Shown here piece after piece: positions 929 through 60,262 of a DNA stretch of 64,000 bases. Position numbers and translations under genes: made by a program. The stretch is taken from assembly GCF_963921235.1 (NCBI RefSeq), contig NC_086108.1, forward strand, positions 19,344,001 to 19,408,000. Direction: 5' to 3'. Source of the stretch: Mobula hypostoma. Lineage: Eukaryota. Below the pieces are notes generated by a model that was not told the origin of the DNA, did no database searches, and was given only the letters and a program-made list of their open reading frames with translations. The first letter of the stretch is position 1. Each line of letters begins with the position of its first letter.

Positions 929-1440
929 AGCTAACAAGCCAGCTCGGCGAGCCATTCGACAATAAAAAATTAATAGTGTATCTGGAAGTAATTTAACAAG
1001 CTACTTAAGACTGAAAGCTGCTCTTCCACTAAAATCTTTTCCTGCAACACGAACGTACTCTTTGTACCTTCTTGGATCTCATGCAGAATTGTTATATTTA
1101 CTTCTAAATACTGGACAATTAGAATAAGTTTTCACTCCATTGCTGAGCTCTGTTGCAGCACAGCCTGCCCAATCAGGTCAAATCCATCATCAACCACTTC
1201 AGGAAACCCACAGGCAATAAGGGAGATCCTGAAGCTGCTGCCTGTCACACTGAGAAATAATTAATATTCATTGTTCTACCATTGTTCTTTCTGCAAAATG
1301 CAGTCCACAGAAATCTCTAAGAATTCCTTTTTAGAAAGTTGATCCTATTTCCTTCTGGACAGGGCTGAAACTGTCAAATGTTTAAATCACAGAGCAAGGG
1401 AAAAGAGCAACACGTGTCTAAAAAATGGCCTGACATATTC

Positions 1441-2376
1441 AAACAACAGGAATTCTGCAGATGCTGGAAATTCAAGCAACACACATCAAAGTTGCTGGTG
1501 AACGCAGCAGGCCAAGCAGCAACTGTAGGAAGAGGTGCAGTCGACGTTTCAGGCCGAGACCCTTCGTCAGGACTAACTGAAGGAAGAGTGAGTAAGGGAT
1601 TTGAAAGTTGGAAAGGGAGGGGGAGATCCAAAATGATAGGAGAAGACAGGAGGGGGAGGGATAGAGCCGAGAGCTGGACAGATGATAGGCAAAAGGGGAT
1701 ACGAGAGGATCATGGGACAGGAGGCCTAGGGAGAAAGACAAGGGGGGGCGGGGACCCAGAGGATGGGCAAGAGGTATATTCAGAGGGACAGAGGGAGAAA
1801 AAAGAGAGTGAGAGAAAGAATCTGTGCATAAAAATAAGTAACAGATGGGGTACGAGGGGGAGGTGGGGCATTAGCGGAAGTTAGAGAAGTCGATGTTCAT
1901 GCCATCAGGTTGGAGGCTACCCAGACGGAATATAAGGTGTTGTTCCTCCAACCTGAGTGTGGCTTCATCTTTACAGTAGAGGTGGCCGTGGATAAACATG
2001 TCAGAATGGGAATGGGATGTGGAATTAAAATGTGTGGCCACTGGGAGATCCTGCTTTCTCTGGCGGACAGAGTGTAGATGTTCAGCAAAGTGGTCTCCCA
2101 GTCTGCGTCGGGTATCGCCAATATATAAAAGGCTACATCGGGAGCACCGGACGCAGTATATCACCCCAGTCGACTCACAGGTGAAGTATTGCCTCACCTG
2201 GAAGGACTGTTTGGGGCCCTGAATGGTGGTAAGGGAGGAAGTGTAAGGGCATGTGTAGCACTTGTTCCGCTTACACGGATAAGTGTCAGGAGGGAGATCA
2301 GTGGGGAGGGATGGGGGGGACAAATGGACAAGGGAGTTGTGTAGGGAGCGATCCCTGCGGAATGCAGAGAGAGGGG
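1441..2376 (-). repeat. Inverted pseudo-LTR of the Penelope element (GIY-YIG coding end, 3' UTR and tail)
   Basis: Reverse complement of about 4430-5320, plus an extra tail of about 30-40 nt. ORF 1871-2401 matches the C-terminus of ORF 4037-4930 with 13 aa differences. Confidence 0.95.
1538..1576 (-). ncRNA. Minimal type I hammerhead ribozyme (intact core)
   Basis: Minus strand reads AGTC-CTGACGA-AGG-gtctcgg-CCT-GAAA-CGTC-GACT. Confidence 0.85.
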
Positions 2377-2569
2377 TGTAGGCCCCGACGCTAGCAGGCA
2401 TGAACTTCAGATTGCGGCCCCTGCCATCGATCTCGGTGGCTCCAACACCTCAGGGCATATTCAAAATCCGGACTCCAGCAACGACCATGGACACCTTCAC
2501 AGCGATTGTGCAACCACCAACTGCGACTCCAGCCTTGAACTCCAGGCCTGGTCTTCAAGTGCTGCTGTT

Positions 2570-4930
2570 GTGACTCCTGTCTCCCCTTCCCCCACCAATA
2601 CTCTGCAATCCCGTCTCCCTCAGATCTCACCATCAGCTCCTGGGCCCTCGGAGGCTCCACCTTCCTCTCACCCCAACCCTCCCCTCTCCACTGACACCCC
2701 CAGCCTCCCCCCTCCCCCCTCTGATCCCAGCTCTCATCCGTGCCGGGTCTTTACCATCCCCTCCGACCTTCAACTGTCGGAGGCAGAACGCTCTGTTCTC
2801 AGTAAGGGCCTCACGTTTGTCCCCCTTCGCCCACACCTCAGCGAGTTCCGTGTTCGCCACGATGCGGAACTTTTCTTCCGCCGTCTCCGAGCCTACTTCT
2901 TCGGCAAGTACGCTTCCACTCCCACCGATGACCCCTTCTCCCGTCTTCAACCCTCCTCTTCTTCATGGACACCCCGCTCTGGTCTTCTACCTGCTCTGGA
3001 TCTCTTTATCGCTAACTGCTGACGGGACATCAACCGTCTCGACTTCACCGCACCTTGTCCCCATTCCAACCTCACTCCTTCGGAACGCTCTGCTCTCCAC
3101 TCCCTCCGCACTAATCCTAACCTTATTATTAAACCTGCCGACAAGGGGGGTGCTGTTGTAGTCTGGCGTACTGACCTCTACCTTGCCGAGGCACAGCGAC
3201 AACTCGCGGATACCTCCTCTTATTTACCCCTCGATCGTGACCCCACTAAGGAGAACCAGGCCATTGTCTCCCACACCATCACCGACTTTATTCGTTCAGG
3301 GGATCTCCCATCCACTGCTACCAACCTTATAGTTCCCACACCCCGCACTTCTCGTTTCTACCTCCTACCCAAGATCCACAAACCTGCCTGTCCTGGCCGA
3401 CCTATTGTCTCAGCTTGCTCCTGCCCCACCGATCTCATTTCTGCATACCTCGACACTGTTTTATCACCCCTTGTTCAATCCCTTCCGACCTATGTTCGTG
3501 ACACTTCTCACGCTCTTAAACTTTTCGATGATTTTAAGTTCCCTGGCCCCCACCGCTTTATTTTCACCATGGATGTCCAGTCCTTATATACTTCCATCCC
3601 CCATCAGGAAGGTCTCAAAGCTCGACTCTTCTTTTTGGATTCCAGACCTAATCAGTTCCCCTCTACCACCACTCTGCTCCCTCTAGCGGAATTAGTCCTT
3701 ACTCTTAATAATTTCTCCTTTGGCTCCTCCCACTTCCTCCAAACTAAAGGTGTAGCTATGGGGACCCGTATGGGTCCTAGCTATGCCTGCCTTTTTGTTG
3801 GGTTTGTGGAACAATCTATATTCCATGCCTATTCTGGTATCTGTCGCCCACTTTTCCTTCACTACATCGACGACTGCATTGGCGCTGCTTCCTGCACGCA
3901 TGCAGAACTCGCATTAACTTTATTAACTTTGCCTCCAACTTTCACCCTGCCCTCAAGTTTACCTGGTCCATTTCCGACACCTCCCTCCCCTTTCTAGATC
4001 TTTCTGTCTCTGTCTCTGGAGACAGCTTATCCACTGATGTCTACTATAAGCCTACTGACTCTCACAGCTATCTGGACTATTCCTCTTCTCACCCTGTCTC
4101 TTGCAAAAACGCCATCCCCTTCTCGCAATTCCTCCGTCTCCGCCGCATCTGCTCTCAGGATGAGGCTTTTCATTCTAGGACGAGGGAGATGTCTTCCTTT
4201 TTTTAAAGAAAGGGGCTTCCCTTCCTCCACTATCAACGCTGCTCTTAAACACATCTCCCCCATTTCACGTACATCTGCTCTCACTCCATCCTCCCGCCAC
4301 CCCACTTGGAATAGGGTTCCCCTGGTCCTCACCTACCACCCCACCAGCCTCCGGGTCCAACATAGTATTCTCCGTAACTTCCGCCACCTCCAACGGGATC
4401 CCACCACTAAGCATATCTTTCCCTCCCCCCCCCCTGCATTCCGCAGGGATCGCTCCCTACACAACTCCCTTGTCCATTCGTCCCCCCCATCCCTCCCCAC
4501 TGATCTCCCTCCTGGCACTTATCCGTGTAAGCGGAACAAGTGCTACACATGCCCTTACACTTCCTCCCTTACCACCATTCAGGGCCCCAAACAGTCCTTC
4601 CAGGTGAGGCAACACTTCACCTGTGAGTCGACTGGGGTGAGATACTGCGTCCGGTGCTCCCGATGTGGCCTTTTATATATTGGCGAGACCCGACGCAGAC
4701 TGGGAGACCGCTTTGCTGAACATCTACGCTCTGTCCGCAAGAGAGAGCAGGATCTCCCAGTGGCCACACATTTTAATTCCACATCCCATTCCCATTCTGA
4801 CATGTCTATCCACGGCCTCCTCTACTGTAAAGATGAAGCCACACTCAGGTTGGAGGAACAACACCTTATATTCCGTCTGGGTAGCCTCCAACCTGATGGC
4901 ATGAACATCGACTTCTCTAACTTACGCTAA
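2570..4930 (+). pseudogene. Penelope RT/GIY-YIG ORF, disrupted
   Basis: One frame from 2570 with an in-frame TGA at 3020-3022 continues through 3569 (MDVQSLYT). Frameshifts occur near 3915 and in the T-run near 4200, and the stop is at 4930. Confidence 0.9.
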
Positions 4931-5215
4931 GGCCCCACCTCCCCCTCGTACCCCATCTGTTACTTATTTTTATGCACACATTCTTTCTCTCACTCTCTTT
5001 TTTCTCCCTCTGTCCCTCTGAATATACCTCTTGCCCATCCTCTGGGTCCCCCCCCCTTGTCTTTCTTCCCGGACCTCCTGTCCCATGATCCTCTCGTATC
5101 CCCTTTTGCCTATCACCTGTCCAGCTCTTGGCTCTAACCCTCCCCCTCCTGTTTTCTCCTATCATTTTGGATCTCCCCCTCCAACTTTCAAATCCCTTAC
5201 TCACTCTTCCTTCGG

Positions 5216-5254
5216 TTAGTCCTGACGAAGGGTCTCGGCCTGAAACGTCGACTG
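5216..5254 (+). ncRNA. Minimal type I hammerhead ribozyme (intact core)
   Basis: Stem I AGTC(5218-21)/GACT(5250-53), core CTGACGA (5222-28), stem II AGG/CCT, GAAA (5242-45), GUC triplet (5247-49) and a palindromic ACGT mini stem III. Confidence 0.85.
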
Positions 5255-6289
5255 CACCTCTTCCTACAGATGCTGCTTGGCCTGCTGCGTTCACCAGCAA
5301 CTTTGATGTGTGTTGCCTGACATATGATGATGGGTGTTAGGACAATTAACATAATTTTCTTAGTTTGTATAATATTCAGTGGCAAACTATGGATAGCTGT
5401 TTCTAACAAGCAATATTAAGGGCAAAGTTCTTTGCCTAGCATTCATCTGGCTAGGTCTACCTGCACCAAGAAAATGTTGAAACAAGCCCATTTCACATCC
5501 AAAATTACAAACCGAAGTATGCACCACCTTCTCTACACAGAATGTAGTAAATAACCATAACAGAAAACGGTCTAGCACTACTAAAACTGACGATGGACTC
5601 ATTCTCTGCCACTAGGAGGAAGCACATCTCTTAGAATAAAGCCCACTGCACTGCCATGCACTGCATATTCTGACATTCAAAATCATGGGTTGACTCTTGC
5701 AGAGAAGCACTGGAGACCTCTGGGTACTGCAACCACTTCTCTAGGCAAATCTGGGATTAATTATGCAATTGGTAGCCACTCTTTGTAGATTACTTCCCCA
5801 AGCACATTTATGTTGGACGATTAGAAGTTCGTTCATGGAGCACAGAGTGGCAGCAGCTCCCCGTGCACACAGTACGAGGAGTCTGCTGCTGAACGCGTCA
5901 CTTTAGACTGGAGAAGGAACAACAAATCCATTCAACGAACAGGAACAGGTGCAAAGGACAAACTATTTGATAATTAACTTTTTTGAGCTGAACTTAGCAA
6001 TTGAAAGCATTGACCCAAAAAGCATTTTTGCTTTGATTTTGAATTGTTCATTTAGATTTAAATGTCTGAGCTAATTGAATTTGTTCACCATTTTTTTAAC
6101 TTTTTAGTTCACTGTCCAGTTTATTTCAGCTATTCCATGTAAACGGATTGTTCATAGAGATTGAGGAAGATGTATTACTGCTCTCCCAGAATGCAGCAAT
6201 GTCACAAAACAAGATGATCCCCAATTGATCTTCCAAGCGCATTAACTACTGTCAGTTTAAGATGCAAAAATAACTTCTGTGTGATCAAT

Positions 6290-15941: not shown

Positions 15942-16815
15942 GGAAACATAGAAAGCTACCAGCATTGTACAGGCCTTTGGGCCCACAAAGCTGTGCCAAA
16001 GATGTCCTTACCTCAGAAATTACCTAGGGTTACCCATAGCCCTCTATTTTTATAAGCTCTATGTACCTATCCAAGAGTCTCTTAAAAGACCCTATCGTAT
16101 CTGCCTCCACCACTGTCGCAGGCAGTCCATTCCATGCACTCACCACTCTCTGCGTAAAAAACTTACCCCTGACATCTCCTCTGTACCTACTTCCAAGCAC
16201 CTTAAAACTTATGCTAGCCATCTCAGCCCTGGGAAAAAGCCTCTGACTATCCACACGATCAATGCCTCTCATCACTTTGGACACCTCTATCAGGTCACCT
16301 CTCATCCTCCTTCACCCCAAGGAGAAAAGGCCGAGTTCACTCAACCTATATTATAAGGCATGCTCCCCAATCCAGGTAACATCCTTGTAAATCTCCTCTG
16401 CACCCTTTCTATGATTTTCACATCCTTCCTGTAGTGAGGTGACCAGAACTGAGCACAGTACTCCAAGTGGCGTCTGACCAGGGTCCTATATAGCTGCAAC
16501 ATTACCTCACGGCTCCTAAACTCAATCCCACGATTGACGAAGGCCAATGCACCATATGCTTTCTTAACCACAGAGTCTACCTGTTTAGAAGCTTTGAGTT
16601 TCCTATGGACTTGGATTCCAAGATCCCTCTGATCCTCCACACTGTCAAGAGTCTTACCATTAATGCTATATTCTGCCATCATATTTGACCTATCAAAATG
16701 AACCACCTCACACTTATCTGGGTTGAACTACATGTGGCATTGTCAGCCCAGTTTTGCATCCTATCAATGTCCCGCAGTAACCTCTGACAGCCCTCCGCAG
16801 TATCCACAACACCAC
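15942..16815 (-). mobile_element. CR1 LINE 3' fragment
   Basis: ORFs 16341-16706 and 16030-16305 (RDLGI, LEYCAQFWSP, RGDLIEV, WNGLP), with a TTCTATGTTTC tail. Confidence 0.9.
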
Positions 16816-16943
16816 ATTGATTATTATAATTACTTTTATTTTACTTGTTATTGTTTCTCTCTGCTAGATTATGTATTGCATCGAACTGCTGAGTTAACAA
16901 ATTTCACGTCACATGCCAGTGATAATAAACCCGATTCTGATTC

Positions 16944-18320
16944 CCAACCTAACAGTTCTTGTCCTAACACTACAGTACCTCCTGCCTGATGGTAACAATT
17001 GAAAGAGAATGTTGGAAGGAAGGGATCATTGACAATGTCAAGGGCACTGCATACACAGCACTCTTGATAAATATCTCTGCCCCCTAAGTCCCCTCCATTA
17101 CTCCCTGTATATCCATGACTGTGTCAACACCCACAGCTCTAACCTAAATAAATTTGCTGACGACAGGCCTAATCTCAAATAATAATCAGGTGGCCTACAG
17201 GGAAGAAGTCATCACCCTGACACAGTGGTGTCAAGAAAACCTCTCCCTCAAAGTCGCAAAAACAAAGAAGCTGTTTGTGGATTACAGGAGAAATGGACAC
17301 AGGCTAACCCCTATTGACATCAATGGATCTGGAGTTGAGAGGGTAAACAGCTTTAAGTTCGTTGGCATCCCCATCACTGAGGATCTCGCTTGGTCTGTAC
17401 GTACCAGCTGTGCGGTGAAAAAGGCACAACAGCGCCTCTTTCACCTCAGATGGTTCAGGAAGTTTGGTATGGGCCCCCAAATCCTCAGAACTTTCTACAG
17501 GGGCACAAAAGAGGGCATCCTGATTGGCTGCATCACTACTTGGTATGGGAACTGTACCTCCCTTAATCACAGGACTCTGCAGAGAGTGGTGCGGACAGCC
17601 AGCGCATCTGTAGTTGTGAACTTCCCATGATTCAGGACATTTACAAAGACAGGTGTGAGAAAAAAGGGCCTATAGGATCATTGGGGACCCAGTCACGCCA
17701 ACCACAATCTATTCCAGCTGCTACCATCCGGAAACTGTACCACAGCATAAAAGCCAGAACCAGCAGGCTCCCGGACAGCTTCTTCCACCAGATCATCAGG
17801 CTGATTAACTCACGCTGATGTGAGAGTATTCTGTTACACTGACTGTTCTATTTATTATAAATTATTATAAATTACTATGACGGAGACATAACAAAGATTT
17901 TTACTCCTCCTGTATGTGAAGGATGTAAGAAATAAAGTCAATTCAGTTCAATGATGGGTGGAAGAGAGACCCAATGATCCTCTCAGCGGTCCTCATAATT
18001 CTTTGTGGTCAGATACCTTGCAATTCCCATTCCAGACGGTGATGCAGCTAGTCAGGACACTCACGATGGTGCTCCTATAAATATTGGTTGAAATGGTTGG
18101 AGCGGGAGCAGCAGGGAACCCTTGCTCACCTCAAACTCCTTAGGAAGTGGAAACACAGCAGTGCTTTCTTGACCAAAGAGGTGGTGTTGAGGGACCAGAT
18201 TACATCATCTGTTAAGTGTTCTTAACTCTCTCCGTGGAGGAGCTGTTTATGTGCAGTGAAAAGTGGATAACCTGCATCTTCCTCAAGTCAACAATGATCT
18301 TCGCTCAAGTTGTTGTCAAG
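16944..18320 (-). mobile_element. Old Rex1-type fragment (16944-17078 and 17950-18320) split by a plus-strand Rex1
   Basis: Minus-strand remnants of LPSGRRY, TIVSVLTSCITVWNG and IVDLRK. Confidence 0.55.
17079..17950 (+). mobile_element. Rex1/Babar LINE 3' fragment
   Basis: ORF 17154-17630 (WCQENLSLKVAKTKKLFVDYRR...KKAQQRLFHLR). The end is AATAAAGTCAATTCAGTTCAA. Confidence 0.85.
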
Positions 18321-38380: not shown

Positions 38381-40431
38381 ATTTCATAGCAGCCCTCCTT
38401 CTGTCACCACAATCACTTTCCACCTACCTGCCTCCGGACTGATAGAATAGCAGCAGCTCATCGTCAAAAAAGAGAAAGAATCTGAGGCAACCCAGAATGA
38501 TAAAATAGGGCACTTTTATCAGCACACACTAACTTCACAGCCAGCCATTCGAAGTGGAATAAACAAAGAAAAGACCTGGTGTCAAGCACGAGACCATGAG
38601 GAATCTGCTTTGGTTGAACCACAGAGGGGGGACAATCTGGAAGGTGATGGAGCAGAGAAATACAATCACATGTCAACTTCCAACTACAGTTAAAGAAACT
38701 CTGAGATCCTTTTAAATTGAACACTCAGTTGTTGTTGTGCATTTGAGAGTACAGCACTGCAACTTGTACAGGATACCATGGAAAAAAGACTGGAAAATGG
38801 CTACTCCCTGAACAAGAGATACAATTTGAGTTCAAGTTCATGCTATACATCCAGTTGCCCCCCAATGCTATAAGGTGTTATGTAGTTCAACCATTTTTTC
38901 CAGTATGAATAAAATGGTTCCAATTTAAGATTAACAGATGCTGTTATCTTCTCCCTTTTGTAAATATATCCATTGTAATTTCCATCCATACATTTAAAGT
39001 TGGGCTCTCCTGTGATAACCATTTCCTGGTAAGGGTCTTTTTACCAGCCACCAGCAGTACATTCATTAAATATTTATCTCTTTTCAACCATTCTTGAGGT
39101 ATATACCCAAAACATATGGTCATACTCTTTGAGGGTATTTCACATTTAAAGATGTCTAGCAGGGCATTATGTATCCCACTCCAATTGTCTTTGATAATGG
39201 GGCATTCCCAGAAAATATGATAGTGGTTTGCATTTTGATTTCCACAATTTCTCCAGCAAGCAGGGGGGTTACTATTATAATGGGATTTCTGAGAGGGTGT
39301 AATAAAATATCTTATCAAGCTTTTCCACCCGAACTCCCTCCATTTCTGTGAACTGGTACACTTCCATTGATACCTCCATGTTATTGTCCAGTCTTCCTCA
39401 GATATTATTATCCCTCCTTCCTTCTCCCATTTTGTTTTAATGTATGAAGTCCAATGTGTTGTAAGATTTGACAAACCCTTATAAACACTTGAAATTATTC
39501 TCCTATGAAATTATTCTCCTACCGTTGTTTGAATTATATGCTTTTCTAAATAGCTCTATCAGACATGTACTTGCCTTGATTACATTTTTAACCATCCTAT
39601 TAACATACAGTCACATCTGTAAATACCGGTAAAAGTCTTGTTTTTCTAGTAAGTGTTTTGAGCATTTCAAAACTGAACAGTGTTCCTTCTTTCATCATAT
39701 TGCAATAGCTGTTATTCCTTTAGCTGTCCAGTCCTTAAATCTAGCATCCAGTTTATTTGGCGTAAAATCCGAGTCATATGCACACCATTTAAGAATTGCA
39801 ATGACTCTCTCTAGCTTATATTCTTTTATAATAGTTTTCCATATTTTAAGAGTCCATTTCACCCACGGGTTGACAATATTATTTACGTAACTTTGTAGGT
39901 TGTTATCAGCCAAAATTGCCTGTATGGGGATGGAAAGCATCCTCTCCTCAATGTTTTTCCATTGAGCATCATATAATGGGTTGCACCAGCATATCACAGC
40001 TCTCAACTGTGCTGAAAAATAATCTCTAAGAAAAGGTAGGCCCCATCCCTTTTCCTCGGCTAATTGCAAAGTTTTGAGACGAACCCTAGGCCTTTTACCT
40101 TGACACATATATCTTGATAGCATCTTGTTCCATTCATTGAATTGATTTTGGTTAATCTCTATTGGTAGGGTCTGAAAGCAATATAGTCGTCTGGGCAGTA
40201 TATTCATTTTAATAGATTCAATCCTTGAACTGAGACCAAGAAAAGGAATTAGGTTCCATCTTGTTATATCTTCCTTAATTTTTTTATATATAGGCTGATA
40301 ATTGCATTCTGATAATTTTGCCCAATCTTTTGGCATAATGATGCCCAAATATTTGATGAACTCTGTTGCCATACCCAAGGATATCTACTTTCAATTTCTC
40401 TTGGTGGGCAATAGTTATATGAAAGTAGTTG

Positions 40432-40468
40432 GGTCCTGACGAAGGGTCTCAGCCTGAAACGTCGACTG
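40432..40468 (+). ncRNA. Minimal hammerhead ribozyme (intact core)
   Basis: GGTC-CTGACGA-AGG-gtctcag-CCT-GAAA-CGTC-GACT. Confidence 0.8.
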
Positions 40469-40530
40469 CGCCTCTTCCTATAGATGCTGCTTGGCCTGCT
40501 GCGTTCACCGCAACTTTGATGTATGTTGCC
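40435..40530 (+). mobile_element. 96-bp Penelope mini-insertion (hammerhead plus 3' end) inside the L1 RT
   Basis: Matches 5221-5317 and has TGGGT on both sides (40430-34, 40531-35). Removing it restores the L1 frame NINKTQLLS. Confidence 0.9.
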
Positions 40531-42424
40531 TGGGTTTTATTTATGTTGATCTTGTATCCTGATAATTGGCCATATTGTTCAAAGGATTGCATCAATTTAG
40601 GTAAAGAGTACGTTGGTTGCCCTAGATAGATCAAAATGTCATCCGCGTAAAAGGCCAATTTATGCTGTCCCTTTAATAGCAATTCCCCTGATATCTTCAT
40701 TTTGTCTGATGTATTGAGCTAATGGTTCCAGATATAATGCGAAGAGTAGCAGTGACCATGCACAACCCTGTCTCGTGCCCCTTTCTAGGGTAAAACTACT
40801 AGATAAGTATCCATTGATTTTAATCCTGGCAGTAGGATTGTTGTATAGTGCCTGCATAGTTTTGATAATTGTGTCATGTAGACCAAATCTATGTAAAACT
40901 CTGTGAAGAAAATTCCAGTTAACCGAATCAAATGCCTTTTCAGCATCCACACTTATCACTATTGCTTCAATTTAATTTTTTTTAATATGATCCAAAATGT
41001 GAAGTGTCCTTTGTATATTGTCTTGTGTTTGGCATTGTTGTATAAAACCTGTCTGATCATTATGATTAGTGTGGGTAGAAACTCTTCTAATCGTTTGACC
41101 ATGATGAAAGTCAATATTCTATAATCCACATTAAGAACAGATATTGGTCTAAATGACCTACATTCCATTTTATCCTTGCCTTCTTTCGGTATAGCTGAGA
41201 TTATCGCCTCCTTCCAGCTGGGTGGCATTTGTGCCTTTCTTAGGGCCCAGTTCAGTGTGGGGAGTAAAACAGGAATTAACTCATTTCTAAATTCTTTATA
41301 CCACTCTGCCGTATATCCATCTGATCCTGGTGACTTGCTTAATTTAAGCCTACTAATTGCAGTTTTTAGTTCAGCTTCAGTTATGTCAGCAGCTATCGTT
41401 CTATTTTGTTCTTTGCTTAAATTGGGTAACTCTAAAGAATTCAGGAAGGTGTCAATTTGGGTTATGCTTCCCCTTGGAATTTTGGAATATAGAGTTTTGT
41501 AGAACATTTCAAAAGCTTCTTGAATTTCACTGAGCTTATTTTTTTAAATCACTTTTGTTCTTGGATCCCTGATTCTATGAATTGTATTTTCTATCTTTTT
41601 TCCCCCCAGTTTCCATGCCAGTATTTTCATAGATTTAGATTCACTTTCATAGTGTCTCTGTTTCTGAAGCATTAAATTTTTTCTAATTTCTTGTGTAGCC
41701 AAAATATTAATTTCATTCCTGATTTTTAAAATTTCCTCTAGTGTATCCTGTGTCAAGCTCAATTTGTGTTTTTTTTCTAGTTTCTTCAGCTTATTTTGTA
41801 CATTAGGGATTTTTAAAAGAATCTAGATCAGGCCATGAATGTGAGGAAAATGGAAGGATTATGGACATTGTGTAGGCAGAAGGGATTAGTTTAGTTGGCC
41901 ATTTGTTACTAATTTAATTGGTTCAGCACAATATTGTGGGCCAAAAGGTCTGTTCCTGTACTGTGCTTTTCTATATTCTAATTTACCGATATGAGATTAT
42001 GTGGAAATCTGTGGTATTTCCATTCAATTTCTTACGAGAAAAACATTGATTCACAGTAAGCCAGAAACATATGACGACTTGATGCATAAATAACCAAAGG
42101 TAATATGGTTAACTCATGAATTTTTAAAGGTACAAAACAACCTGTTTGATATATGCATCTTTTCTCCAACTGCATTTCAAAGAAGAATAAAAAAAATACA
42201 AACTCTCAGGAAAATTAATTACAGAATTTCCATTTTCTGGTCTGTTCAAGTTTATTTTGAGCAATCTCATCTGACAAAAATATTTTTTAAACCATTTCCC
42301 TTCAAGCCACAAATGAACTTCAAAGCAATCAGGTGCATCTCAATGGTAGCCTTCTCACACCCCACTCAGGAGATTATTCGTTCAAGCTTTTACAAAAGCA
42401 TTAAAAAAAAATCTTGAAGTGGGA

Positions 42425-43745: not shown

Positions 43746-45955
43746 GAAGAGACAAAGGACTGAAGAGGGAGAGGAACAGACAAATTAGGAAAGCGTTTAA
43801 GTGGAGTAAGGGGAAATATGAAGCTATCACGCAGGAACTTGGAAGCATAAATTGGGGACAGATGTTCTCAGGGAAACGCAAGGCAGAAATGTGGCAAATG
43901 CTCAGGGGATACTTGTGTGGCGTTCTGCAAAGGTATGTTCCAATGAGACAGGGAAAGGAGGGTAGGGTACAGGAACCGTGGTGTACTAAGGCTGTTGAAA
44001 ATCTAGTCAAGAAGAAAAGCTTACAAAAGGTTCAAAAAACTAGGTAATGATAGAGATCCAGAAGATTATAAGGCTAGCAGGAAGGAACTTAAGAATGAAA
44101 TTAGGAGAGCCAGAAGGGGCCATGAGAAGACCTTGGGGAGCAGGACTAAGGAAAACCCAAAGGCATTCTGCAAGTATGTGAAGAGCAAGAGGATAAGATG
44201 TGAGCGAATAAGACCAATCAAGTGTGACAGTGGAAAAGTGTGTATGGAACCAGAGAAGATAGCAGAGGTACTTAATGAATACTTTGCTTCAGTATTCACT
44301 ATGGAAAAGGATTTTGGCGATTGTAGGGATGACTTACAGCAGATTGAAAAGCTTGAACATGTCCGTAGATATTAAGAAAGAGGATATGCTGGAGCTTTTG
44401 GAAAGCATCAAGTTGGATAAGTCTCCGGGACTGGACGAGATGTATCCCAGGCTACTATGGGAGGTGAGGGAGGAGATTGCTGAGCCTCTGGCAATGATCT
44501 TTGCATCATCAATGGGGACAGGAGAGTTTCCGGAGGATTGGAGGGTTGCAGATGTTGTTCCCTTATTTAAGAAAGGAAGTAGAGATAGCCCAGGAAATTA
44601 TAGACCAGTGAGTCAAACTTCAGTGGTTGGTAAGTTGACGGGAAAGACCCTGAGAGGCAGGATTTATGAACAATTGGAGAGGCATAATATGATTAAGAAA
44701 AGTCAGCATAGCTTTGTCAAAGGCAGGTCCTCAATTTTCTGAGGATGTGACTAAACACGTTGATGAAGGTAGAGCAGTAGATGTAGTGTATATGGATTTC
44801 AGCAAGGCATTTGACAAGGTACCCCATGCAAGGCTTATTGAGAAAGTAAGGAGGCATGAGATCCAAGAGGACATTGCTTTGTAGATCCAGAATTGGTTTG
44901 CCCACAGAAAGCAAAGGGCGGTTGTAGATGGGTCATATTCTGCATGGAGGTCGGTCACCAGTGATGTGCCTCAGGGATCAGTTCTGGGATCCCTTCTCTT
45001 CATGAAGTTTATAAGTGACCTGGATGAGGAAGTGGAGGGATGGGTTAGTAAATTGGCTGATGACAAATGTTAGGGGTGTTGTGGATAGCATGGAGGGCTG
45101 TCAGAGGTTACAGCTAGACATCGATAGGATGCAAAACTAGGCTGAGAAGTGGCAGATGGAGCTCAACCCAGACAAGTGTGAGGTGGTCCAGTTTGGGAGG
45201 TCAAATATGATGGCAGAATATAGTATTAATGGTAAGACACTTGGCAGTGTGGAAGACCAGAGGGATCTTGAGGTTAGAGTCCATAGGACACACAAAGTTG
45301 CTGTGCAGGTTGACTCTGTGGTTAAGAAGGCATACGGTGCATTGGCCTTCATCAATCGTGGGACTGAGTTCAAGAGCCGCGAGGTAATGTTACAGCTATA
45401 TAGGACCCTGGTCAGACCCCACTTGGAGTACTGTGCTCAGTTCTGGCCACCTCACTACAGGAAGGATGTGGAAACTATGGGAAGGGTGCAGAGGAGATTT
45501 ACAAGGATGTTGCCTAGATTGGGGAGCATGCCTTATGAGAATAAGTTGAGTGAACTCAGCCATTTTTTCTTGGAGTGACGGAGGATGAGAGGTGACCTGA
45601 CAGGTGTATAAGATGATGAGAGGCACTGATCGTGTGGATAATCAGAAGTTTTTTCCCAGGGATGAAATGGCTAACACAAGAGGGCACAGTTTTAAGGTGC
45701 TTGGAAGTAGGTACAGAGGAGATGTCGGGCTAAGTTTTTTTTTTAAAAAAAAGAGTGGTGAGTGCGTGGAATGGGCTGCCAGCAACGGTGGTGGAGGCGG
45801 ATATGATAGGGTCGTTTAAGAGACTCTTGGAGAGGTACATGGAGCTTAGAAAAATAGAAGGCTATGGGTAAGCCGAGATAATTTCTAAAGTACATGTCGG
45901 CACAGCATTGTGGGCCAAAGAGCCTGTATTGTGCTGTAGGTTTTCTATGTTTCTA
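43746..45955 (+). mobile_element. CR1 LINE, 5'-truncated and decayed
   Basis: ORFs 44275-44742 and 45156-45578, YMDFSKAFDKVPH, and tail TTTTCTATGTTTCTA. Confidence 0.92.
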
Positions 45956-50842: not shown

Positions 50843-53114
50843 TGATCATAACATGATTGAGTTCACTGTGAAATTTGAAAAAGAGAAGCTGAAATCTGAT
50901 GTGTCGTTATTTCAGTGGAGTAATGGAAATTACAGTGGAATGAGAGAGGAACTGGCCAAAGTTGACTGGAAAGGGACACTGGCGGGAAAGACGGCAGAGC
51001 AGCAGTGGCTGGAGTTTATGCGAGAAGTGAGGAAGGTGCAAGACAGATATATTCCAAAAAAGAAGAAATTTTCGAATGGAAAAAGGATGCAACCGTGGTT
51101 GACAAGTCAAAGTCAAAGATAAAGCAAAGGAGAGGGCATACAAGGAAGCAAAAATTAGTGGGAAGACAGAGGATTGGGAAGTTTTTAAAACCTTACAAAA
51201 GGAAACTAAGAAGGTCATTAAGAGGGAAAAGATCAACTATGAAAGGAAGCTGGCAAATAATATCAAAGAGGATACTAAAAGCTTTTTCAAGCTATAAAGA
51301 GTAAACGACAGGTGAGAGTAGATATAGGACTGATAGAAAATGATGCTAGAGAAATTGTAATGGGAGATAAGGAGATGGCAGAGGAACTGAATGAGTATTT
51401 TGCATCGGTCTTCACTGAGCAAGACATCAGCAGTATACCGGACACTCAAGGGTGGCGGGGAAGAGAAGCGTGCACAGTCACAATTATAACAGAGAAAGTA
51501 CTCAGGAAGCTGAATAGTCTAAGAATAGATAAGTCTCCTGGACCAGATGGAATGCACACGCATGTTCTGAAGGAAGTAGCTGTGGAGATTGCGGAGGCAT
51601 TCGTGATGATCTTTCAAAAGTCGATAGATTCTGGAATGGTTCCATAGGACTGGAAGATTGCAAATGTCACTCCGCTATTTAAGAAGGGGGCAAGGAAGCA
51701 AAAAGGAAATTATAGACCTGCTGGCTTGACATTGGTGGTTGGGAAGTTGTTGGAGTCGATTGTCAAGGATGAGGTTACAGAGTACCTGGAGGTATATGAC
51801 AAGATAGGCAGAACTCAGCATGGATTTCTTAAAGGAAAATCCTATTACAAACCTATTACAATTTTTTGAGGAAATTACCAGTAGGCTAGACAAGGGAGAT
51901 GCAGTGGATGTTGTATATTTGGATTTTCAGAAGGCCTTTGACAAGGTGCCACACATGAGGCTACTTAACAAGATAAGAGCCCATGGAATTACGGGAAAGT
52001 TACATACATGAATAGAGCATTGGCTGATTGGCAGGAAACAGAGAGTGGGAATAAAGGGATCCTATTCTGGTTGGCTGCCGGTTACCAGTGGTGTTCCACA
52101 GAGGTCCGTGTTGGGGCCGCTTCTTTTTACATTGTACATCAACGATTTGGATTATGGAATAGATGGCTTTGTAGCTAAGTTTGCTGATGATACGAAGATA
52201 AGTGGAGGGGCCAGCAGTGCTGAGGAAATGGACAGTCTGCAGAGAGACTTGGATAGATTGGAAGAATGGGCAAAGAAGTGGCAAATGAAATACAATGTTG
52301 GAAAGTGTATGGTTATGCACTTTGGCAGAAGAAATAAAAGGGCAGACTATTATTTAAATGGAGAAAGAATTCAAAGTTCTGAGATGCAACGGGACTTGGG
52401 AGTCCTCGTACAGGATACCCTTAAGGTTAACCTCCAGGTTGAGTTGGTAGTGAAGAAGGCAAATGCAATGTTGGCATTCATTTCTAGAGGAATAGAGTAT
52501 AGGAGCAGGGATGTGATGTTGAGGCTCTATAAGGCGCTGGTGAGACCTCACTTGGAGTACTGTAGGCAGTTTTGGTCTCCTTATATAAGAAAGGATGTGC
52601 TGACGTTGGAGAAGGTACAGAGAAGATTCACTAGAATGATTCCGGGAATGAGAGGGTTAACATATGAAGAACATTTGTTTGCTCTTGGACTGTATTCCTT
52701 GGCGTTTAGAAGAATGAGGGGAGACCTCATAGAAACATTTCGAATGTTGAAAGGCATGGACAGAGTGGATGTGGCAAAGTTGTTTCCCATGATGGGGGAG
52801 TCTAGTACGAGAAGGCATGACTTAAGGATTGAAGGGTGCCCATTCAGAACAGAAATGCGAAAAAATTTTTTTAGTCAGAGGGTGGTGAATCTATGGAATT
52901 TGTTGCCACGGGCAGCAGTGGAGGCCGAGTCATTGGGTGTATTTAAAGCAGAGATTGATAGGTATCTGAGTAGCCAGGGCATCAAAAGTTATGGTGAGAA
53001 GGCGGGGAAGTGGGACTAAATGGGAGAATGGATCAGCTCATGATAAAATGGCAGAGCAGACTCGATGGGCCGAATGGCCGACTTCTGCCCCTTTGTCTTA
53101 TGGTCTTATGGTCT
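50843..53114 (+). mobile_element. Younger CR1 LINE, 5'-truncated
   Basis: ORF 52045-53019 (324 aa: SGVPQ, YINDLD, KFADDTK), tail (TCTTATGG)n, and CTAA on both flanks. Confidence 0.95.
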
Positions 53115-54904
53115 AAAAGCTCATGCATACAAAGTCGCCAAGAGTAGTGGGAGACAAAGATTGGGAAAACTTTATAAAAGCAACAAAGACCACTAAGCAT
53201 GCAATAAAGAAAGGGAAGCCAGATTATGAAAATAAACTAGCACAAAATATAAAAATGGATAGTAAAAGTTTTTATAATTTTATAAAGCGGAAAAGGGTGG
53301 CCAAAGAGAACGTAGGTCCCTTGGAGGAAGAAGGTGGAATTGATATTGGGTAATGAGGAAATGGTTGAGGCTTTGAATGATGATTTTGTGTCAGTCTTCA
53401 CGGCGGAGGCCACATCTAGCATGTCAAACAGAGATTATATGGATGCAATGGGAAGTGAGGACCTCGATACAACAGCTATCACTAAAGAGGTAGTGCTGAG
53501 TAAACTTGTGGGCCTGAAGATAGTCAAGTCTCCTGGTCCTGATGGAATGCATCCCAGGGTACTGAAAGAAATGGCAAAAGTTATAGTTGAGGCTTTGGTG
53601 ATCATTTACCAAAATTCTCTCAACCCTTGGCAGGTCTCAGCTGATCGGAAGACAGGAAGTGTCACGCCACTGTTCAAAAAAGAATGTAGGCAAAAGCAGG
53701 TAACTATAGGCCAATTAATTTAACATCTGTAGTTGGGAAAATGCTTGAAGCTATCATTAAAGAAATAGCGAGGCTCCTGGAAAGAAATGGATCCATCGGG
53801 CAGACACAGCATAGATTCAACAAAGGCAGGTCCTGTTTGACAAACTTACTGGAGTTCTTTGAGGATATAACGAGCGCAGTGGATAGAGGGGAACAGATGG
53901 ACTTAATTTACTTGAATTTCCAGAAGGCATTCGATAAAGTGTCACATAAAAGACTTACACAGTATCTGTAAGCTAAGGATGCATAGATTTGGGGATGATA
54001 TATTAGGATGGATAGAGAATTGTTTAGTTAATAGAAAGCGAAGAGTTGGGATACATGGGTGCTACTCTAATTGGCATTCAGTATGCCACAGGGGTCAGTG
54101 CTGGGCCCACAACTGTTCACGGCATACATTATTGATCTGGAAGAAGGGACCGAATGTAGTGCATCCAAGTTTGTTGATGACACTAAATAAAGTGGAAAGG
54201 TAAATTGTGCAGAAGATACAGAGAGTTTGCAGAGAGATATAGATAGGTTAAGTGAGTGGGCAAGGGTCCGGCAGATAGCGTACTGTACAATATTGGTAAA
54301 TGCGAGCTCTTCCACTTTGGAAGGAAAAATGAAAGAGCAGATGATTATTTATAGCAAAAAATAGCAGCATGCTGCTGTGCAAAAGGACTTGGGAGTGTTT
54401 GTTTATGAATCACAAAAGGTTGGTTTGCAGGTGCAGCAAGCTATCATGAAGGTAAATGGAATGTTGGCCTTCATTCCTAGAGGGATTGAATTTAAGAGCA
54501 GGGAGGTTATGCTGCAACTGTACAGTGTACTGGTGAGGCCACACCTGCGTGCAGTTCTGGTCTCCTTACTTGAGGAAGGATGTACTAGCTTTGGCGACAA
54601 TGCAGAGGAAGTCCTCCAGGTTGATTTCATAGATAAGGGGGTTAGACTATGAGGAGAGATCGAGTTGCCTAGGACTGTACTCGCTGGAATTCAGAAGAAT
54701 GAGGAGATCTGATAGAAACATATTAAAAGGATAGATAAGATACAGGTAGGAAAGTTGTTTCCACTGGTACGTGAGACTAGAACTAGGGGACATAGCCTCA
54801 AGATTAGGACAGAGATGAGGAGGAACTGCTTTTCCCAAAGAGTGGTTATCCTGTGGAATTTTCTGCCTAATGAAGCAGTGGAGGCTACCTCAGTAAAAAT
54901 TTAA

Positions 54905-55140: not shown

Positions 55141-55562
55141 CTACAGTAAATATATTTAAGACAAGGTTGGATAGATTTTTGCATAGTAAGGGAATTGAAG
55201 GTTGTAGGGAAACGCAGGTTGGTGGAGATGAGTCCATGGCCAGATCAGCCATAAACATAGAATGGCGCAGTGGGCTTGATGGGGCAGATGGCCTACTGCT
55301 GCTCTCATTTCTTACGCAAGGAATTGGCCACATTCAAACCCGTGACCACTCACCTTGAGTCTAGTGCAGACACCACTGCACCACTGGCCGGCTAGTTTTA
55401 AGTATATAACTCAAACCTAATGTCTTTGGGAAGATGGTGGTGAACTAGCTTTTTGAACTATTGCAGTGTTTCTGGTGAAACTACTCTAATAGATATGTGA
55501 AGGCACTCCAAGATGTTTGGCTTCGTGTCAATGGAACAATTCTGCAGATGGTGAAAACCTTG

Positions 55563-55664
55563 TGCAGCACACATAAAATGCTAGAAGAATTCAGCAAGTT
55601 AGGTAGCAACTATGGAGGGAAATAAACAGCTGATGTTTCAGGTCAAGAGCCTTCTTCAGGACTG
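55563..55664 (-). mobile_element. Short Penelope 3' end with hammerhead core (55627-55664)
   Basis: Minus strand reads CAGTC-CTGAAGA-AGG-ctcttga-CCT-GAAA-CATC-AGCTG. The core is intact and stem I is weakened. Confidence 0.65.
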
Positions 55665-56600
55665 CTCTCTCTTTTACCTGTTCCAACGAAGAAGTGTTTC
55701 AGTTCACTCCACATATCCTTCTAGGTAATAGCAGATAATTTAGATGGATCTCCAAAAATAAAAGGACACATTAGAACGCCTCAGAAATTCACCTCACCTC
55801 CTCTTCTCAGGCAAATGTCTCAAAAGAATCTCAAGTGCAAACAGTAGACTGTTGACAGATGGGCGGATTTGTAAATACTTAATCTCAAGCTCACAGCAAG
55901 CAAAGCGGCAATCTGTTTTCAACATATGAATCAAGGGAATTGGAGGTCCCTCACCAAAAACCAGAAGCACGGCGATTAAACAGATAATGATAACACATTA
56001 AAATACAGTTTTGAATTGCACCTTTGGAAAGAATGTTATTTTATTTGACTAGCACTCCAATTCTCTTTGTATCAACTCCAGGAGAATACAAGGATTAGAC
56101 CTCCACCATTCAAGTTAGCTTGCACTTTGAATATGGGTGAATGCATGTTCTTGTACTTGTTCCATTATTGTCACTCACCAACCTACTGCATCCTACTACA
56201 GCACATTATGAATAAAATTTACCTACAAAGCTGATATTTTGTCCCTTCTCAGTTCAGGGAGTGCCACCAGGCAGCAGAAAACATTACATTTTAAAAAGAA
56301 AACTGAAAGCCATGTTAGAAAGCCCTTGCGCAAATATAATGATCCAATTACTTTGGCAAGTCCCAATCCAAACAAACTAATAACAAAATTTATGAAATAT
56401 TAATTGTTCATGAACTGATAATGTTTTGATCCCATTCCAGTATTCGCTTGGCAAATCCCAGAGATCTATTATGTATATTCTTCAACCTAATTATGTCAGT
56501 CATATTTTCTTGCTATTCTGTGATTGCATTTTTGACTGCTTGTGGGTGAAGAGCAAGAGGATCAGGTAGTGCCTCAGCAAAATTAGCTACAATCAAGCTG

Positions 56601-56706
56601 AGCAACACACATAAAATGCTGGAGGAAGTCAGCAGGGCAGGCAGCATCTATGGGAAAGAGTATAGTCGATGTTTTGGGCCGAAACCCCTCAACAAGATTG
56701 TTTGTT
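56601..56706 (-). mobile_element. 106-bp Penelope mini-insertion
   Basis: 13-bp TSD TACAATCAAGCTG at 56588-56600 and 56707-56719. It contains a degenerate hammerhead and the family 3' end. Confidence 0.85.
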
Positions 56707-58139
56707 TACAATCAAGCTGCCAGACTTTCATTATGAGGTCTTACATTAGGTGTCTATGATGACAAAATACCCAAGGTAGTTTACCATCATCAAGACTTAG
56801 GTCAAGCACAATGGCTTTGGAAAGAGTGAGGAAGTCCAAAAGCCAATCAAGATATTGCAAGCTTGTGATTTTGTCACAAGCCTCTTCACAAATATATTCC
56901 TCACTACCACCTGTTCTGAATTTGAAGTACAAACTGTGGAAAATGGATTGACCACATGTTAATTCATTTACTCGGTCTAAAGTACAAGCAATACATAGTT
57001 ACCTACTCTGAAAATGCTATATTGAAATGGTAGCTTTAGTGGAAGAGTTTATGCTGCTGTAAATGCTTGAAAGAAAATGTATCTTAAGGTAGTATATGGT
57101 GACATATACATACTGCCATAATTAATTCGCTTTGACTTTTTAAAGATCTATTCAACAGGCCAAAGAGAAGGAATTGAGTTGTAACACACCTTAATTATTT
57201 AATGCAAAAAGCTGCACAAATTTGTCTGTTTTAAGAATGGAAACCCAATCTTCACACAGAGTATTAAATAGCACATGGCACCAAAAGTGTCCATGTAATC
57301 TCCACCATCAACTAGGTAGTCCAGAATAGCAGTTCAAAGTCAGGGTTGCTTCTGAGTGCAACACTGGTATCTTCAGCATGGGTCCTATGCCTGGAAAGCT
57401 GATTGCCCACCCAATCATTGCTGCTCCAGCCTCAAAGGAGCATGACCTTGACTGACTCTCTGACATTGTTTGCTAGTAGAGAAATTCAGCAGCTGTACAC
57501 TATAGACATCTGTCAATTTAAGACAGAGATGGGGTGTTTAAACTCATTCCATACTCTTCCAGCTGTTAAGACAATAGAGATTTTCATTCCAAACAAATGG
57601 AGTTTAAATCCAAATCAGAAAGAAGATAAAGTTCCAACATATTAAGCTCTCTCTCATCTCCCTTTATTCAAGACTAAGTCATTTTTTCCAATTAATAGAG
57701 TCACAAATGTCTGTACTTCTTTACAAATCAGCACTTGCAATTCAAATGTCAGGGGTTTTAGCATTGGTGATGCGGATTTCAAATGTGTTTCTTAAATTAT
57801 TTCAGTGAAGAATTCCATGAACTGTTTCTTTGTTAATGGTGCCAACCATGTGGGAATTTGGAGAGGTTGAATCAACTTCACCACAAAAAAATGTAAAAGA
57901 CCAGAGGGAAAACAGTTTGTCGTGCTTGAGAAAGCCACACTGACCCAAAACCCCACCCACTCTTCTCAAACATTTTTTAAAACAGTGAACTGTACTTAAT
58001 ACGAAACAGACCACTTGTTGTTTATTGTTCTACTCAGTGGAGGATACTGACAACTAGTTAACGATGCACAAAAATAAACTGTCAAATCTTACCTACAATC
58101 ATTGCATTGAAATTACAAGAATTTGTACTTATGTTTCAC

Positions 58140-58353
58140 AAACATGAGAAAATCTGCAAATGCTAGAAATCCAAAGGAACATACACAAAGTGCTGGATGG
58201 ATTCAGCAGGCCAGGCAGCATCTATGGAAAAGAGTAAACAGTCTTTCAGGTCAAGAGCCTTCACCAAGTCTCGGCCCGAAACCCGTTGACTGTTTACTCT
58301 TTTCCACAGATGCTGCCTGGCCTGCTGAGTTCCTCCAGCACTTTGTGTGGGTT
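58140..58353. mobile_element. Palindromic Penelope-derived mini element
   Basis: The arms 58183-58242 and about 58287-58348 are reverse complements, and the junction lies within the hammerhead. Confidence 0.8.
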
Positions 58354-58639
58354 GTACTTATGTTTGTTTGCTTCTCATCCACAAGCATCTTCATCATGCT
58401 CACTGAACCTTCAATATTCATATCTACCTTCATTTGTACTACTTAGGGGTAGAAGCTGGCTTGAATATTCCCCTGATTATAAAATGAACAACATCTCCCT
58501 CAGGTAGTCTATCAGAGTCAAGGGTGACAAGATCTTTGGTCCTTATGGGGACAATGTGGACATGGAAGGGGCTCCAAGACTGCCTACAGGTGAGGCAAGA
58601 GGTAATCTACAGAGTACTACTCCTACCATTTGCAGTAGA

Positions 58640-59756: not shown

Positions 59757-60262
59757 TTTCAAGCAACACACATAAAAGTTGCTGGTGAACGCAGCAGGCC
59801 AGGCAGCATCTCTAGGAAGAGGTACAGTCGACGTTTCAGGCCGAGACCCTTCGCCAGGACTAACTGAAGGAAGAGCTAGTAAGAGATTTGAAAGTGGTGG
59901 GGGGGGGGGAGATCCGAAATGATAGGAGAAGACAGGAAGGGGAGGGATGGAGCCAAGAGCTGGACAGTTGATTGGCAAAAGGGATATGAGAGGATCATAG
60001 GACAGGAGGCCGAGGGAGAAAGAAAAGGGGGAGACAGAGAAACCCCAGAGGATGGGCAGGGGTATAGTGAGAGGGACAGAGGGAGAAAAAGGAGAGAGAA
60101 AATCTCTTACTAGTTCTTTCAGTTAGTCCTGATGAAGGGTCTCGGCCCGAAACATCGACTACACCTCTTCCTACAGATGCTGCCTGGCCTGCTGCGTTCA
60201 CCAGCAACTTTCATGTGTGTTGCTTGAAATTCCAGCATCTGCAGATTTCCTCGTGTTTGCAT
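59757..60262. mobile_element. About 500-bp non-coding Penelope derivative with inverted ends and two hammerheads
   Basis: Minus arm 59757-60100 and plus arm 60101-60260 with tail. AAACGGGTTT is duplicated at 59746-55 and 60269-78. Confidence 0.88.
60124..60161 (+). ncRNA. Minimal hammerhead ribozyme (intact core, AUC triplet)
   Basis: TAGTC-CTGATGA-a-GGG-tctcgg-CCC-GAAA-CATC-GACTA. Confidence 0.75.

What the first reader, a model, noticed from the sequence alone, without database searches (positions are those of the whole stretch)
40430..40535. About 100-nt retroposed units consisting of little more than a hammerhead
Seen: 40435-40530 (TGGGT duplication, clean insertion in an L1 ORF) and 56601-56706 (13-bp TSD) are independent insertions, and 55563-55664 is similar. 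Each spans from hammerhead stem I to the family 3' end. At 40432 the target itself supplies part of stem I. Their 5' ends lie upstream of the cleavage site, so self-cleavage does not explain them. Inference: either RT terminates on leaving the folded ribozyme, or a tiny non-autonomous retrozyme-like RNA is mobilised by the Penelope RT.
Basis: partly seen in the sequence, partly recalled or inferred. Interest (0 to 1): 0.75.

Follow-up and report, generated by a model that had tools for sequence, protein, structure and literature searches.

The report
Penelope stubs stop at hammerhead edge
These 100-base inserts are cut-short copies of a common Penelope-type jumping gene, not a separate tiny element, but thousands of them begin at the outer edge of its small ribozyme rather than at its cut site, which likely marks where part of the copied RNA begins.

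Summary
The units are real: 40435-40530 sits in an L1 reading frame with a 5-bp duplication and 56601-56706 has a 13-bp one; 55563-55664 has none. They are 3' ends of a Penelope-like element (RT + GIY-YIG; long copy at 2380-5316). Genome-wide, 5' ends do pile up at hammerhead stem I: about 19-22% of the young copies that reach it end within 5 bases, about 3-4 times the neighbouring bins and about 10 times the cleavage site. A separate retrozyme-like mini is not supported: minis are interspersed with long copies in a tree, only 22 head-to-tail joints exist, and 18 of 30 such ends belong to head-to-head pairs. Best reading (0.5, inferred): cDNA primed at an internal site runs off a subpopulation of uncleaved RNAs whose 5' end lies there; paired arms stop together. 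Against it: copies read in from the ORF side stop there only half as often, and no RNA 5' ends could be seen. A protein- or RNA-bound barrier remains the main rival (0.3). I found the pile-up in no paper searched, but this scan noted it before in this genome and others (unreviewed notes).

The parts
40435..40530 (+). Solo 5'-truncated Penelope-like copy (young subfamily), family positions -96 (or -98 with the shared GT) to -1
   Evidence: 94-95% identical to the 3' end of the long copy at 5221-5316
40433..40468 (+). Minimal type I hammerhead motif: stem I 40433-40435/40464-40466, core CUGACGA 40436-40442, stem II 40444-40455, GAAA 40456-40459, predicted cut 40463/40464; no helix III
   Evidence: sequence; architecture as in PMC4209133; no Rfam hit at gathering score; predicted minimum-energy fold is a non-catalytic rod; cleavage not tested
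40430..40434 (+). Left copy of the 5-bp target duplication; its last 2 bases are microhomology with stem I
40531..40535 (+). Right copy of the 5-bp target duplication
40536..40718 (-). Host L1-type RT coding stretch next to the insertion; frame continues over the empty site
56601..56706 (-). Solo truncated copy of an older subfamily, starting at stem I, degenerate core
56588..56600 (+). 13-bp target duplication, left copy (right copy 56707-56719)
55563..55664 (-). Old truncated copy starting at stem I; no TSD found; degenerate tail follows at about 55530-55562
2380..5316 (+). Long, decayed copy of the parent element: RT (3023-3904), CX4CxxC linker, GIY-YIG (4502-4927), pyrimidine-rich 3' UTR, hammerhead 5217-5254
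   Evidence: RVT_1 E=4.4e-06; GIY-YIG E=4.3e-04; both Pfam scores below the curated cut-offs
1437..2376 (-). Inverted, tail-bearing arm of the same insertion (head-to-head with 2380-5316; 13-bp TSD)
59758..60262 (.). Second head-to-head pair of the young family (arms of about 327 and 127 bases, one tailed, 12-bp TSD)
58175..58354 (.). Short head-to-head pair of an older subfamily with its junction in the hammerhead

Best explanation
The 100-base units are 5'-truncated insertions of an endonuclease-bearing Penelope-like retroelement whose 5' ends pile up at the outer edge of hammerhead stem I, likely because the element's reverse transcriptase runs off the 5' end of an uncleaved template RNA that begins there. 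Shown: family membership, target duplications, the pile-up at -96..-100 in solo copies and in head-to-head pairs and in young and old subfamilies, depletion at the cut site, one tailed and one untailed arm in every pair, and correlated arm lengths. Inferred: the protein nicks both target strands about 13-16 bases apart and primes cDNA at two internal sites (-1 and about +35); a fraction of templates has its 5' end at about -99/-100 (a transcription start at an initiator-like YYANWYY with A at -99, or 5'-to-3' trimming back to the folded or protein-bound ribozyme); cDNA of about 100 or 135 bases runs off there and is joined to the target, or to the other cDNA, through a few bases of microhomology. 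Longer copies would come from other templates (upstream-started, tandem read-through or circularised RNA) or from template jumps.
For: Peak with a sharp upstream wall: by-eye tally of the 100 listed rows (-96:12, -97:18, -98:29, -99:22, -100:19) and (-101:21, -102:22, -103:28, -104:11, -105:18), scaled to the bin totals, gives about 3,400 ends at -100 and about 1,100 at -101, with a trailing shoulder downstream. The stop is fixed in place, not in distance from the start: 16 of 30 stem-I copies carry the tail, 14 do not. Same solo share at the peak and beside it (12 of 30 in each), so it does not depend on the joining partner. Arms of pairs stop together: rho 0.71 in 22 unselected pairs, p=2e-4; when one arm ends at stem I the other exceeds 110 bases in 2 of 16 pairs, against 22 of 44 unselected arms (binomial p about 0.002, my arithmetic). 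One insertion (L016, 8-bp TSD read by eye) stops at stem I twice, [-97..+168][-98..-1]. 62 of 62 pairs have exactly one tailed arm and 57 of 62 have an 11-18-bp TSD, matching two internal RT start sites and extension of both strands in vitro; in that work uncleaved RNA was the main substrate and 5' shortening of the RNA shortened the product (PMC11167929). Older subfamilies: 34 of 86 classifiable copies end near stem I, 3 of the remaining 52 in the next ~30 bases (crude pyrimidine-content test).
Against: Copies read in from the ORF side, which should nearly all run off if every template began at -99, stop there less often: 20 matches against a denominator of 435 (4.6%; the two patterns differ slightly and 3 of the 20 are one array) versus 7,090 of 82,227 (8.6%), p=0.002. 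So only a subpopulation of templates can end there, which is an added assumption. About 70% of sampled copies pass the site. No RNA 5' end was observed: only assembled contigs of runs guessed to be RNA were available. No clear cap-derived G: among 22 listed -99 ends, 5 have G at -100 (by eye). The initiator-like 7-mer is weak evidence, since AGTC is also required by stem I. In Drosophila virilis Penelope the start site lies 46 bases before a 75-base intron (PMC2377424) whose end maps to helix I (PMC4209133), so there helix I is a splice acceptor, not the start. Coupled arm lengths also fit a dimer that falls off as a whole at a barrier.
Confidence: 0.5

Rival explanations
1. A barrier on a longer template stops the enzyme at stem I: the element's protein bound to the ribozyme, a second RNA paired there in a double hammerhead, or splicing factors on the acceptor-like tract (branch-like TACTCAC/TACTAAC, pyrimidine tract, YAG) that abuts stem I. 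This is the first reader's 'RT terminates' idea in a form that does not need the already-melted hairpin.
For: About 70-80% of cDNAs pass, and ORF-side copies still show some stops, as a leaky barrier would give. All subfamilies have a pyrimidine tract plus YAG directly before stem I. The anole ribozyme cleaves only with its protein present (PMC11167929). Min-HHRs are proposed to act as dimers (PMC4209133).
Against: Ends lie at the far edge of the helix, not at its entry. A constant per-pass barrier predicts equal stop rates, but ORF-side copies stop half as often. An independent leaky barrier predicts that partner arms often run long; 2 of 16 do. No peak at the branch-point bin.
Confidence: 0.3
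2. The peak is a joining bias: cDNAs end anywhere, but self-complementarity of stem I (AGTC/GACT) and nearby palindromes favours fold-back or annealing there (compare the self-priming model for inverted PLE junctions).
For: A few junctions are exact stem-I fold-backs (L019, L187; 2 of the 100 rows by eye). Microhomology is common at the junctions. Self-priming has been proposed for head-to-head PLE structures (PMC3846280).
Against: Solo copies joined to unrelated target DNA show the same enrichment (12 of 30 solo in both bins). The perfect palindrome at the cut site is depleted. The predicted cDNA fold does not form the stem-I hairpin. Simple fold-back does not give a tail on exactly one arm (62 of 62) unless the endonuclease trims it afterwards.
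Confidence: 0.1
3. A separate, tiny non-autonomous retrozyme-like RNA (about 100 nt, possibly circular) is mobilised by the Penelope RT.
For: Thousands of TSD-flanked solo units exist (8 of 12 solo loci with a TSD of 7 bp or more, scaled). Non-LTR retrozymes related to PLE pLTRs are described in vertebrates (bioRxiv 10.64898/2026.07.22.740005). A few short tandem arrays with joints at stem I exist (233- and 310-base units).
Against: No separate clade or diagnostic site; 22 head-to-tail joints against about 16,000-18,000 stem-I ends (joints of tailed units were not searched); 5' ends are ragged over -96..-100 and both 3' ends (-1, +35) occur; a single minimal hammerhead near the 5' end cannot cut out a 100-base unit (established ribozyme geometry); 60% of such ends are arms of pairs.
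Confidence: 0.05

Closest known systems
Endonuclease-bearing Penelope-like elements, Neptune type (PMC8557442; PMC3846280)
   Same: RT plus C-terminal GIY-YIG, CX4CxxC linker, heavy 5' truncation, partial tandems (L041, unit 3,512 bases), inverted 5'-truncated arm, 35-base tail at one end only, TSDs.
   Different: The passages read describe 5' truncation as frequent but report no preferred end point; here 19-22% of copies reaching stem I end within five bases, and the tail is on exactly one arm in 62 of 62 pairs.
Minimal type I hammerheads of PLE pLTRs, mostly found as dispersed single motifs (Cervera and de la Pena 2014, PMC4209133)
   Same: Short helix I, bulged base before helix II, palindromic ACGU instead of helix III; most genomic motifs are solitary or in close inverted pairs and were read as truncated PLEs.
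   Different: That paper proposes self-cleavage and circles; the copies here almost never start at the cut site and instead start about 30 bases upstream of it.
Poseidon element of Anolis carolinensis in vitro (Frangieh et al. 2024, PMC11167929)
   Same: Two internal RT start sites that bound the tail, both target strands cut and extended, hammerhead cleavage dispensable, uncleaved RNA as template.
   Different: Different clade; no genomic 5'-end profile is given in the main text read (three supplement files held as text had no hits for my terms; figures not seen).
Non-LTR retrozymes of animals (PMC7761336; bioRxiv 10.64898/2026.07.22.740005)
   Same: Short, non-coding, hammerhead-bearing, related to PLE pLTRs.
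   Different: Retrozymes are tandem repeats that yield circles cut at the ribozyme; these units are solo or head-to-head, form no lineage of their own and keep the ribozyme uncut inside.
Minus-strand strong-stop DNA of LTR retroelements (recalled, not from a call)
   Same: Works like it under the best reading: short cDNA primed near the RNA 5' end that runs off.
   Different: Primed by nicked target DNA, not tRNA, and integrated directly; the analogy is inferred.

Membership tests
EN+ Penelope-like element (Neptune type) | RT domain followed by C-terminal GIY-YIG endonuclease in the parent element | tested here: met
   RVT_1 E=4.4e-06 and GIY-YIG E=4.3e-04 in one decayed ORF; both under the curated cut-offs
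EN+ Penelope-like element (Neptune type) | CX2-5CxxC linker between RT and EN | tested here: met
   CKRNKCYTC in the translation; definition from PMC8557442
EN+ Penelope-like element (Neptune type) | Placement in the Neptune clade by RT phylogeny | not tested
   no named PLE proteins were fetched; clade label rests on the linker motif alone
EN+ Penelope-like element (Neptune type) | pLTR with minimal hammerhead, partial tandem or inverted arm, 30-40-base tail, TSD | tested here: met
Minimal type I hammerhead ribozyme | CUGANGA / GAAA / UH core with helices I and II | tested here: met
   40433-40468; not met for 56601-56706, whose core is degenerate; no Rfam hit
Minimal type I hammerhead ribozyme | Self-cleavage (as dimer or with protein) | not testable with these tools
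   needs in-vitro assay; predicted lowest-energy fold is a non-catalytic rod
Non-LTR retrozyme | Head-to-tail tandem units each with a hammerhead | tested here: not met
   22 joints genome-wide for tail-less ~100-base units; tailed units not searched; a few 233-310-base arrays seen
Non-LTR retrozyme | Own lineage, distinct from the autonomous element | tested here: not met
   limited resolution (96 columns)
Non-LTR retrozyme | Accumulating circular RNA | not testable with these tools
   only contigs of runs guessed to be RNA

The most novel reading that the evidence does not exclude
Penelope-like elements use two kinds of template: a linear, uncleaved RNA whose 5' end is set at hammerhead stem I gives strong-stop-like 100/135-base cDNAs, made in pairs by a dimer from both target nicks, while full passes come from ribozyme-cut and circularised (or upstream-started) RNA that has no such end. 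The genome then holds a fossil map of the RNA 5' end and of the ribozyme's role, which would be to define the template and not to trim the insert.
Probability: 0.25. Interest if true: 0.75.

Novelty: new variant of a known kind. Interest (0 to 1): 0.45.

Why it matters
What the hammerhead does in Penelope-like elements, and which RNA is their template, are stated open questions (PMC8557442, PMC7761336, PMC11167929). A base-resolved 5'-end hotspot, a depleted cut site, strict one-tail-per-pair asymmetry and a lower stop rate in ORF-side copies give concrete predictions for 5' RACE and in-vitro TPRT. The units themselves are ordinary truncated copies and need no new family; for annotation, an estimated several thousand solo 100-base stubs could be mistaken for a SINE.

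Tried and rejected
Rfam at gathering score: 0 matches in the window. Histogram from one reference over all subfamilies was set aside because older subfamilies stop aligning at stem I for lack of upstream similarity; young-family-anchored patterns replaced it. Cleavage-defined 5' ends: rejected. Fixed distance from the RT start: rejected. Spliced template with an element-derived first exon: none of 30 stem-I loci has same-strand element sequence spliced on upstream (L189 lies inside another copy, L192 follows an ORF-start piece), and no GT..AG joint into -97 or -101 appeared among the 15 joints shown of 263. Lariat stop at the branch point: no peak. Sequencing runs: no RNA holder listed on record; only contigs, which show no starts, so nothing follows for expression. 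Two fetches of 20 stretches returned nothing because those contigs are short; loci for bins other than -100..-96 and -105..-101 could not be cut out, so solo/pair shares are known for those two bins only. Bins -85..-71, -65..-34 and beyond -115 were not counted genome-wide. Literature searches found no paper reporting a pile-up of PLE 5' ends at stem I; the library lacks most subscription papers, supplements of the bioRxiv preprint are closed and figures were not seen. Look-up of earlier findings by sequence gave nothing.
Full report
What is there. The window lies in a 3.48-Gb genome. The stretch at 40435-40530 matches about 17 other places in the window, among them the 3' end of a long decayed element at 2380-5316 that encodes an RT and a GIY-YIG endonuclease (both Pfam scores under the curated cut-off) with a CX4CxxC linker, the mark of Neptune-type Penelope-like elements (PLEs) in PMC8557442 (passages). 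I number from the family 3' end (-1). The minimal hammerhead has its stem I 5' strand at -100..-96, core at -95..-89 and predicted cut at -68/-67; many copies carry a 35-base tail beyond -1. One exact 33-mer of the 3' end occurs 33,777 times in the genome.

The three cited units. 40435-40530 has a 5-bp duplication and interrupts an L1-type frame that is continuous over the empty site; the two target bases that 'supply' stem I are microhomology. 56601-56706 has the 13-bp TSD but a degenerate core and belongs to an older subfamily. 55563-55664 starts at stem I, has no TSD that I could find and runs on into a decayed tail (all).

Is there a peak? I counted 5' ends genome-wide in the young family with patterns made of three bases that must differ from the family, four free bases, an exact 8-mer, a fixed gap and a 17-base anchor. 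Raw counts: 382 (-70..-66), 1,654 (-90..-86), 2,640 (-95..-91), 7,090 (-100..-96), 1,509 (-105..-101), 976 (-110..-106), 1,235 (-115..-111). Corrected for the chance of passing each filter the stem-I bin holds about 17,900 ends by base composition, or about 15,900 with pass rates measured on real junctions (my weighting), i.e. 19-22% of the 82,227 copies that reach -96; this is 3-4 times its neighbours and about 10 times the cleavage bin. Copies with indels between 8-mer and anchor are missed in every bin, and some rows in the -90, -110 and -115 bins are indel or subfamily variants, which inflates those controls. A separate sample (1.2 Mb of evenly spaced stretches from six large contigs, the window, and 30 loci chosen by the 3' 33-mer alone) gives 9 of 61 (15%) and a stop rate of 2.6% per base at 96-100 against about 0.1% beyond 150 (94 copies). 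In older subfamilies 34 of 86 classifiable copies end near stem I (108 of 254 HMM hits passed the age, score and 3'-end filters, and 22 of these start inside the ribozyme).

Is it a separate element? No evidence. In a tree of 92 copies over 96 columns, the 19 solo minis need 17 label changes (shuffled mean 17.2; 283 of 500 shuffles as low); resolution is low, but all five common subfamily haplotypes hold stem-I copies (p=0.23). The best single-site difference (p=0.002 of 96 sites) is not seen in the listings (5 versus 7 of 100, by eye). Head-to-tail joints of tail-less units number 22. Of 30 stem-I loci, 18 are arms of head-to-head pairs and 12 solo, 8 of these with a TSD of 7-15 bp. Retrozymes are defined by tandem units and circles (PMC7761336, passages; bioRxiv 10.64898/2026.07.22.740005, parts 1-3 of 5 read).

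How the insertions are built. This fits a protein that cuts and extends both target strands and starts at two internal sites, as shown in vitro for the anole element, where uncleaved RNA was the main template (PMC11167929, parts 1-2 of 4 read). Arm lengths are correlated (rho 0.71, n=22), and partners of stem-I arms exceed 110 bases in 2 of 16 pairs against 22 of 44 unselected arms. One insertion stops at stem I twice (L016). The stop is tied to position, since tailed and untailed copies share it (16 and 14 of 30), and it has a steep upstream edge between -100 and -101 (by-eye tallies).

Mechanism. The simplest cause of a place-fixed, partner-independent, shared stop with a hard upstream edge is the end of the template. 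I therefore favour run-off from RNAs whose 5' end lies at -99/-100, from a start site (YYANWYY with A at -99 in all subfamilies, weak evidence) or from trimming to the folded ribozyme. One test went against the plain form of this idea: only about 435 pLTRs continue into the ORF, and these stop at stem I half as often (20 matches; p=0.002) where the plain model predicts nearly always. The model survives only if long passes use other templates, such as the circles proposed in PMC4209133 (parts 1-2 of 4 read) or upstream-started RNA; the same result also argues against a constant stop at every pass. A barrier made by bound protein, a second RNA or splicing factors stays open: an acceptor-like tract abuts stem I and in D. 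virilis an intron ends at helix I, 121 bases after the start site (PMC2377424, passages; PMC4209133). I saw no spliced copy and no branch-point peak. Self-priming, proposed for inverted PLE junctions (PMC3846280, passages), explains a few junctions but not the solo copies. No RNA 5' end could be observed.

Novelty. The element, its hammerhead, dispersed solitary motifs, inverted arms and tails are all in print. The pile-up at stem I, the depletion at the cut site and the ORF-side deficit were in none of the papers my eight searches returned. Eight unreviewed notes of this scan, two from this genome, report the same pile-up with the same reading; I had written that hypothesis down before seeing them, and they are not independent support. 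One of them led me to check the linker and change my clade label from Poseidon to Neptune type. The strong-stop analogy and the initiator consensus are recalled, not from a call.

Verdict. Real feature, ordinary element, informative truncation profile. Interest 0.45; new variant of a known kind.

Noticed in passing
L040:8802, L090:8881, L111:1686, L119:2199, L175:2294, L037:1846, L082:785, window 56601-56706: An older subfamily has CUG(C/U)YGA in place of CUGANGA (conserved A6 changed) in many copies, so it may have spread with an impaired ribozyme; several of its copies still end at stem I (about 11 copies).
   Followed up: partly
G000:C12:195329315-195329942 and G000:C2:157816721-157817513: Short head-to-tail arrays (units of 233 and 310 bases, three matches each) whose joints link the start of the ORF to stem I; these fit the retrozyme definition better than the 100-base units.
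   Followed up: no
L016:1231-1596 (minus-strand numbering), L192:1327-1603, L216:1504-2017: Insertions with an internal jump to +168, +174 or +209 in the ORF start, close to the minimal 3' extent reported for the anole template.
   Followed up: partly
L041:1356-5214: Full-length partial tandem copy (unit 3,512 bases, pLTR from -347); only about 435 ORF-proximal pLTRs were counted against 82,227 3' ends.
   Followed up: partly
window 5196-5220 and all subfamilies: Branch-point-like heptamer, pyrimidine tract and YAG directly before stem I, like a 3' splice site; no spliced copy seen.
   Followed up: partly
window 12429-16813, 44416-45955, 51030-54885: Large, mutually related, partly inverted repeat fragments of another family (63-85% identical); not examined.
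   Followed up: no
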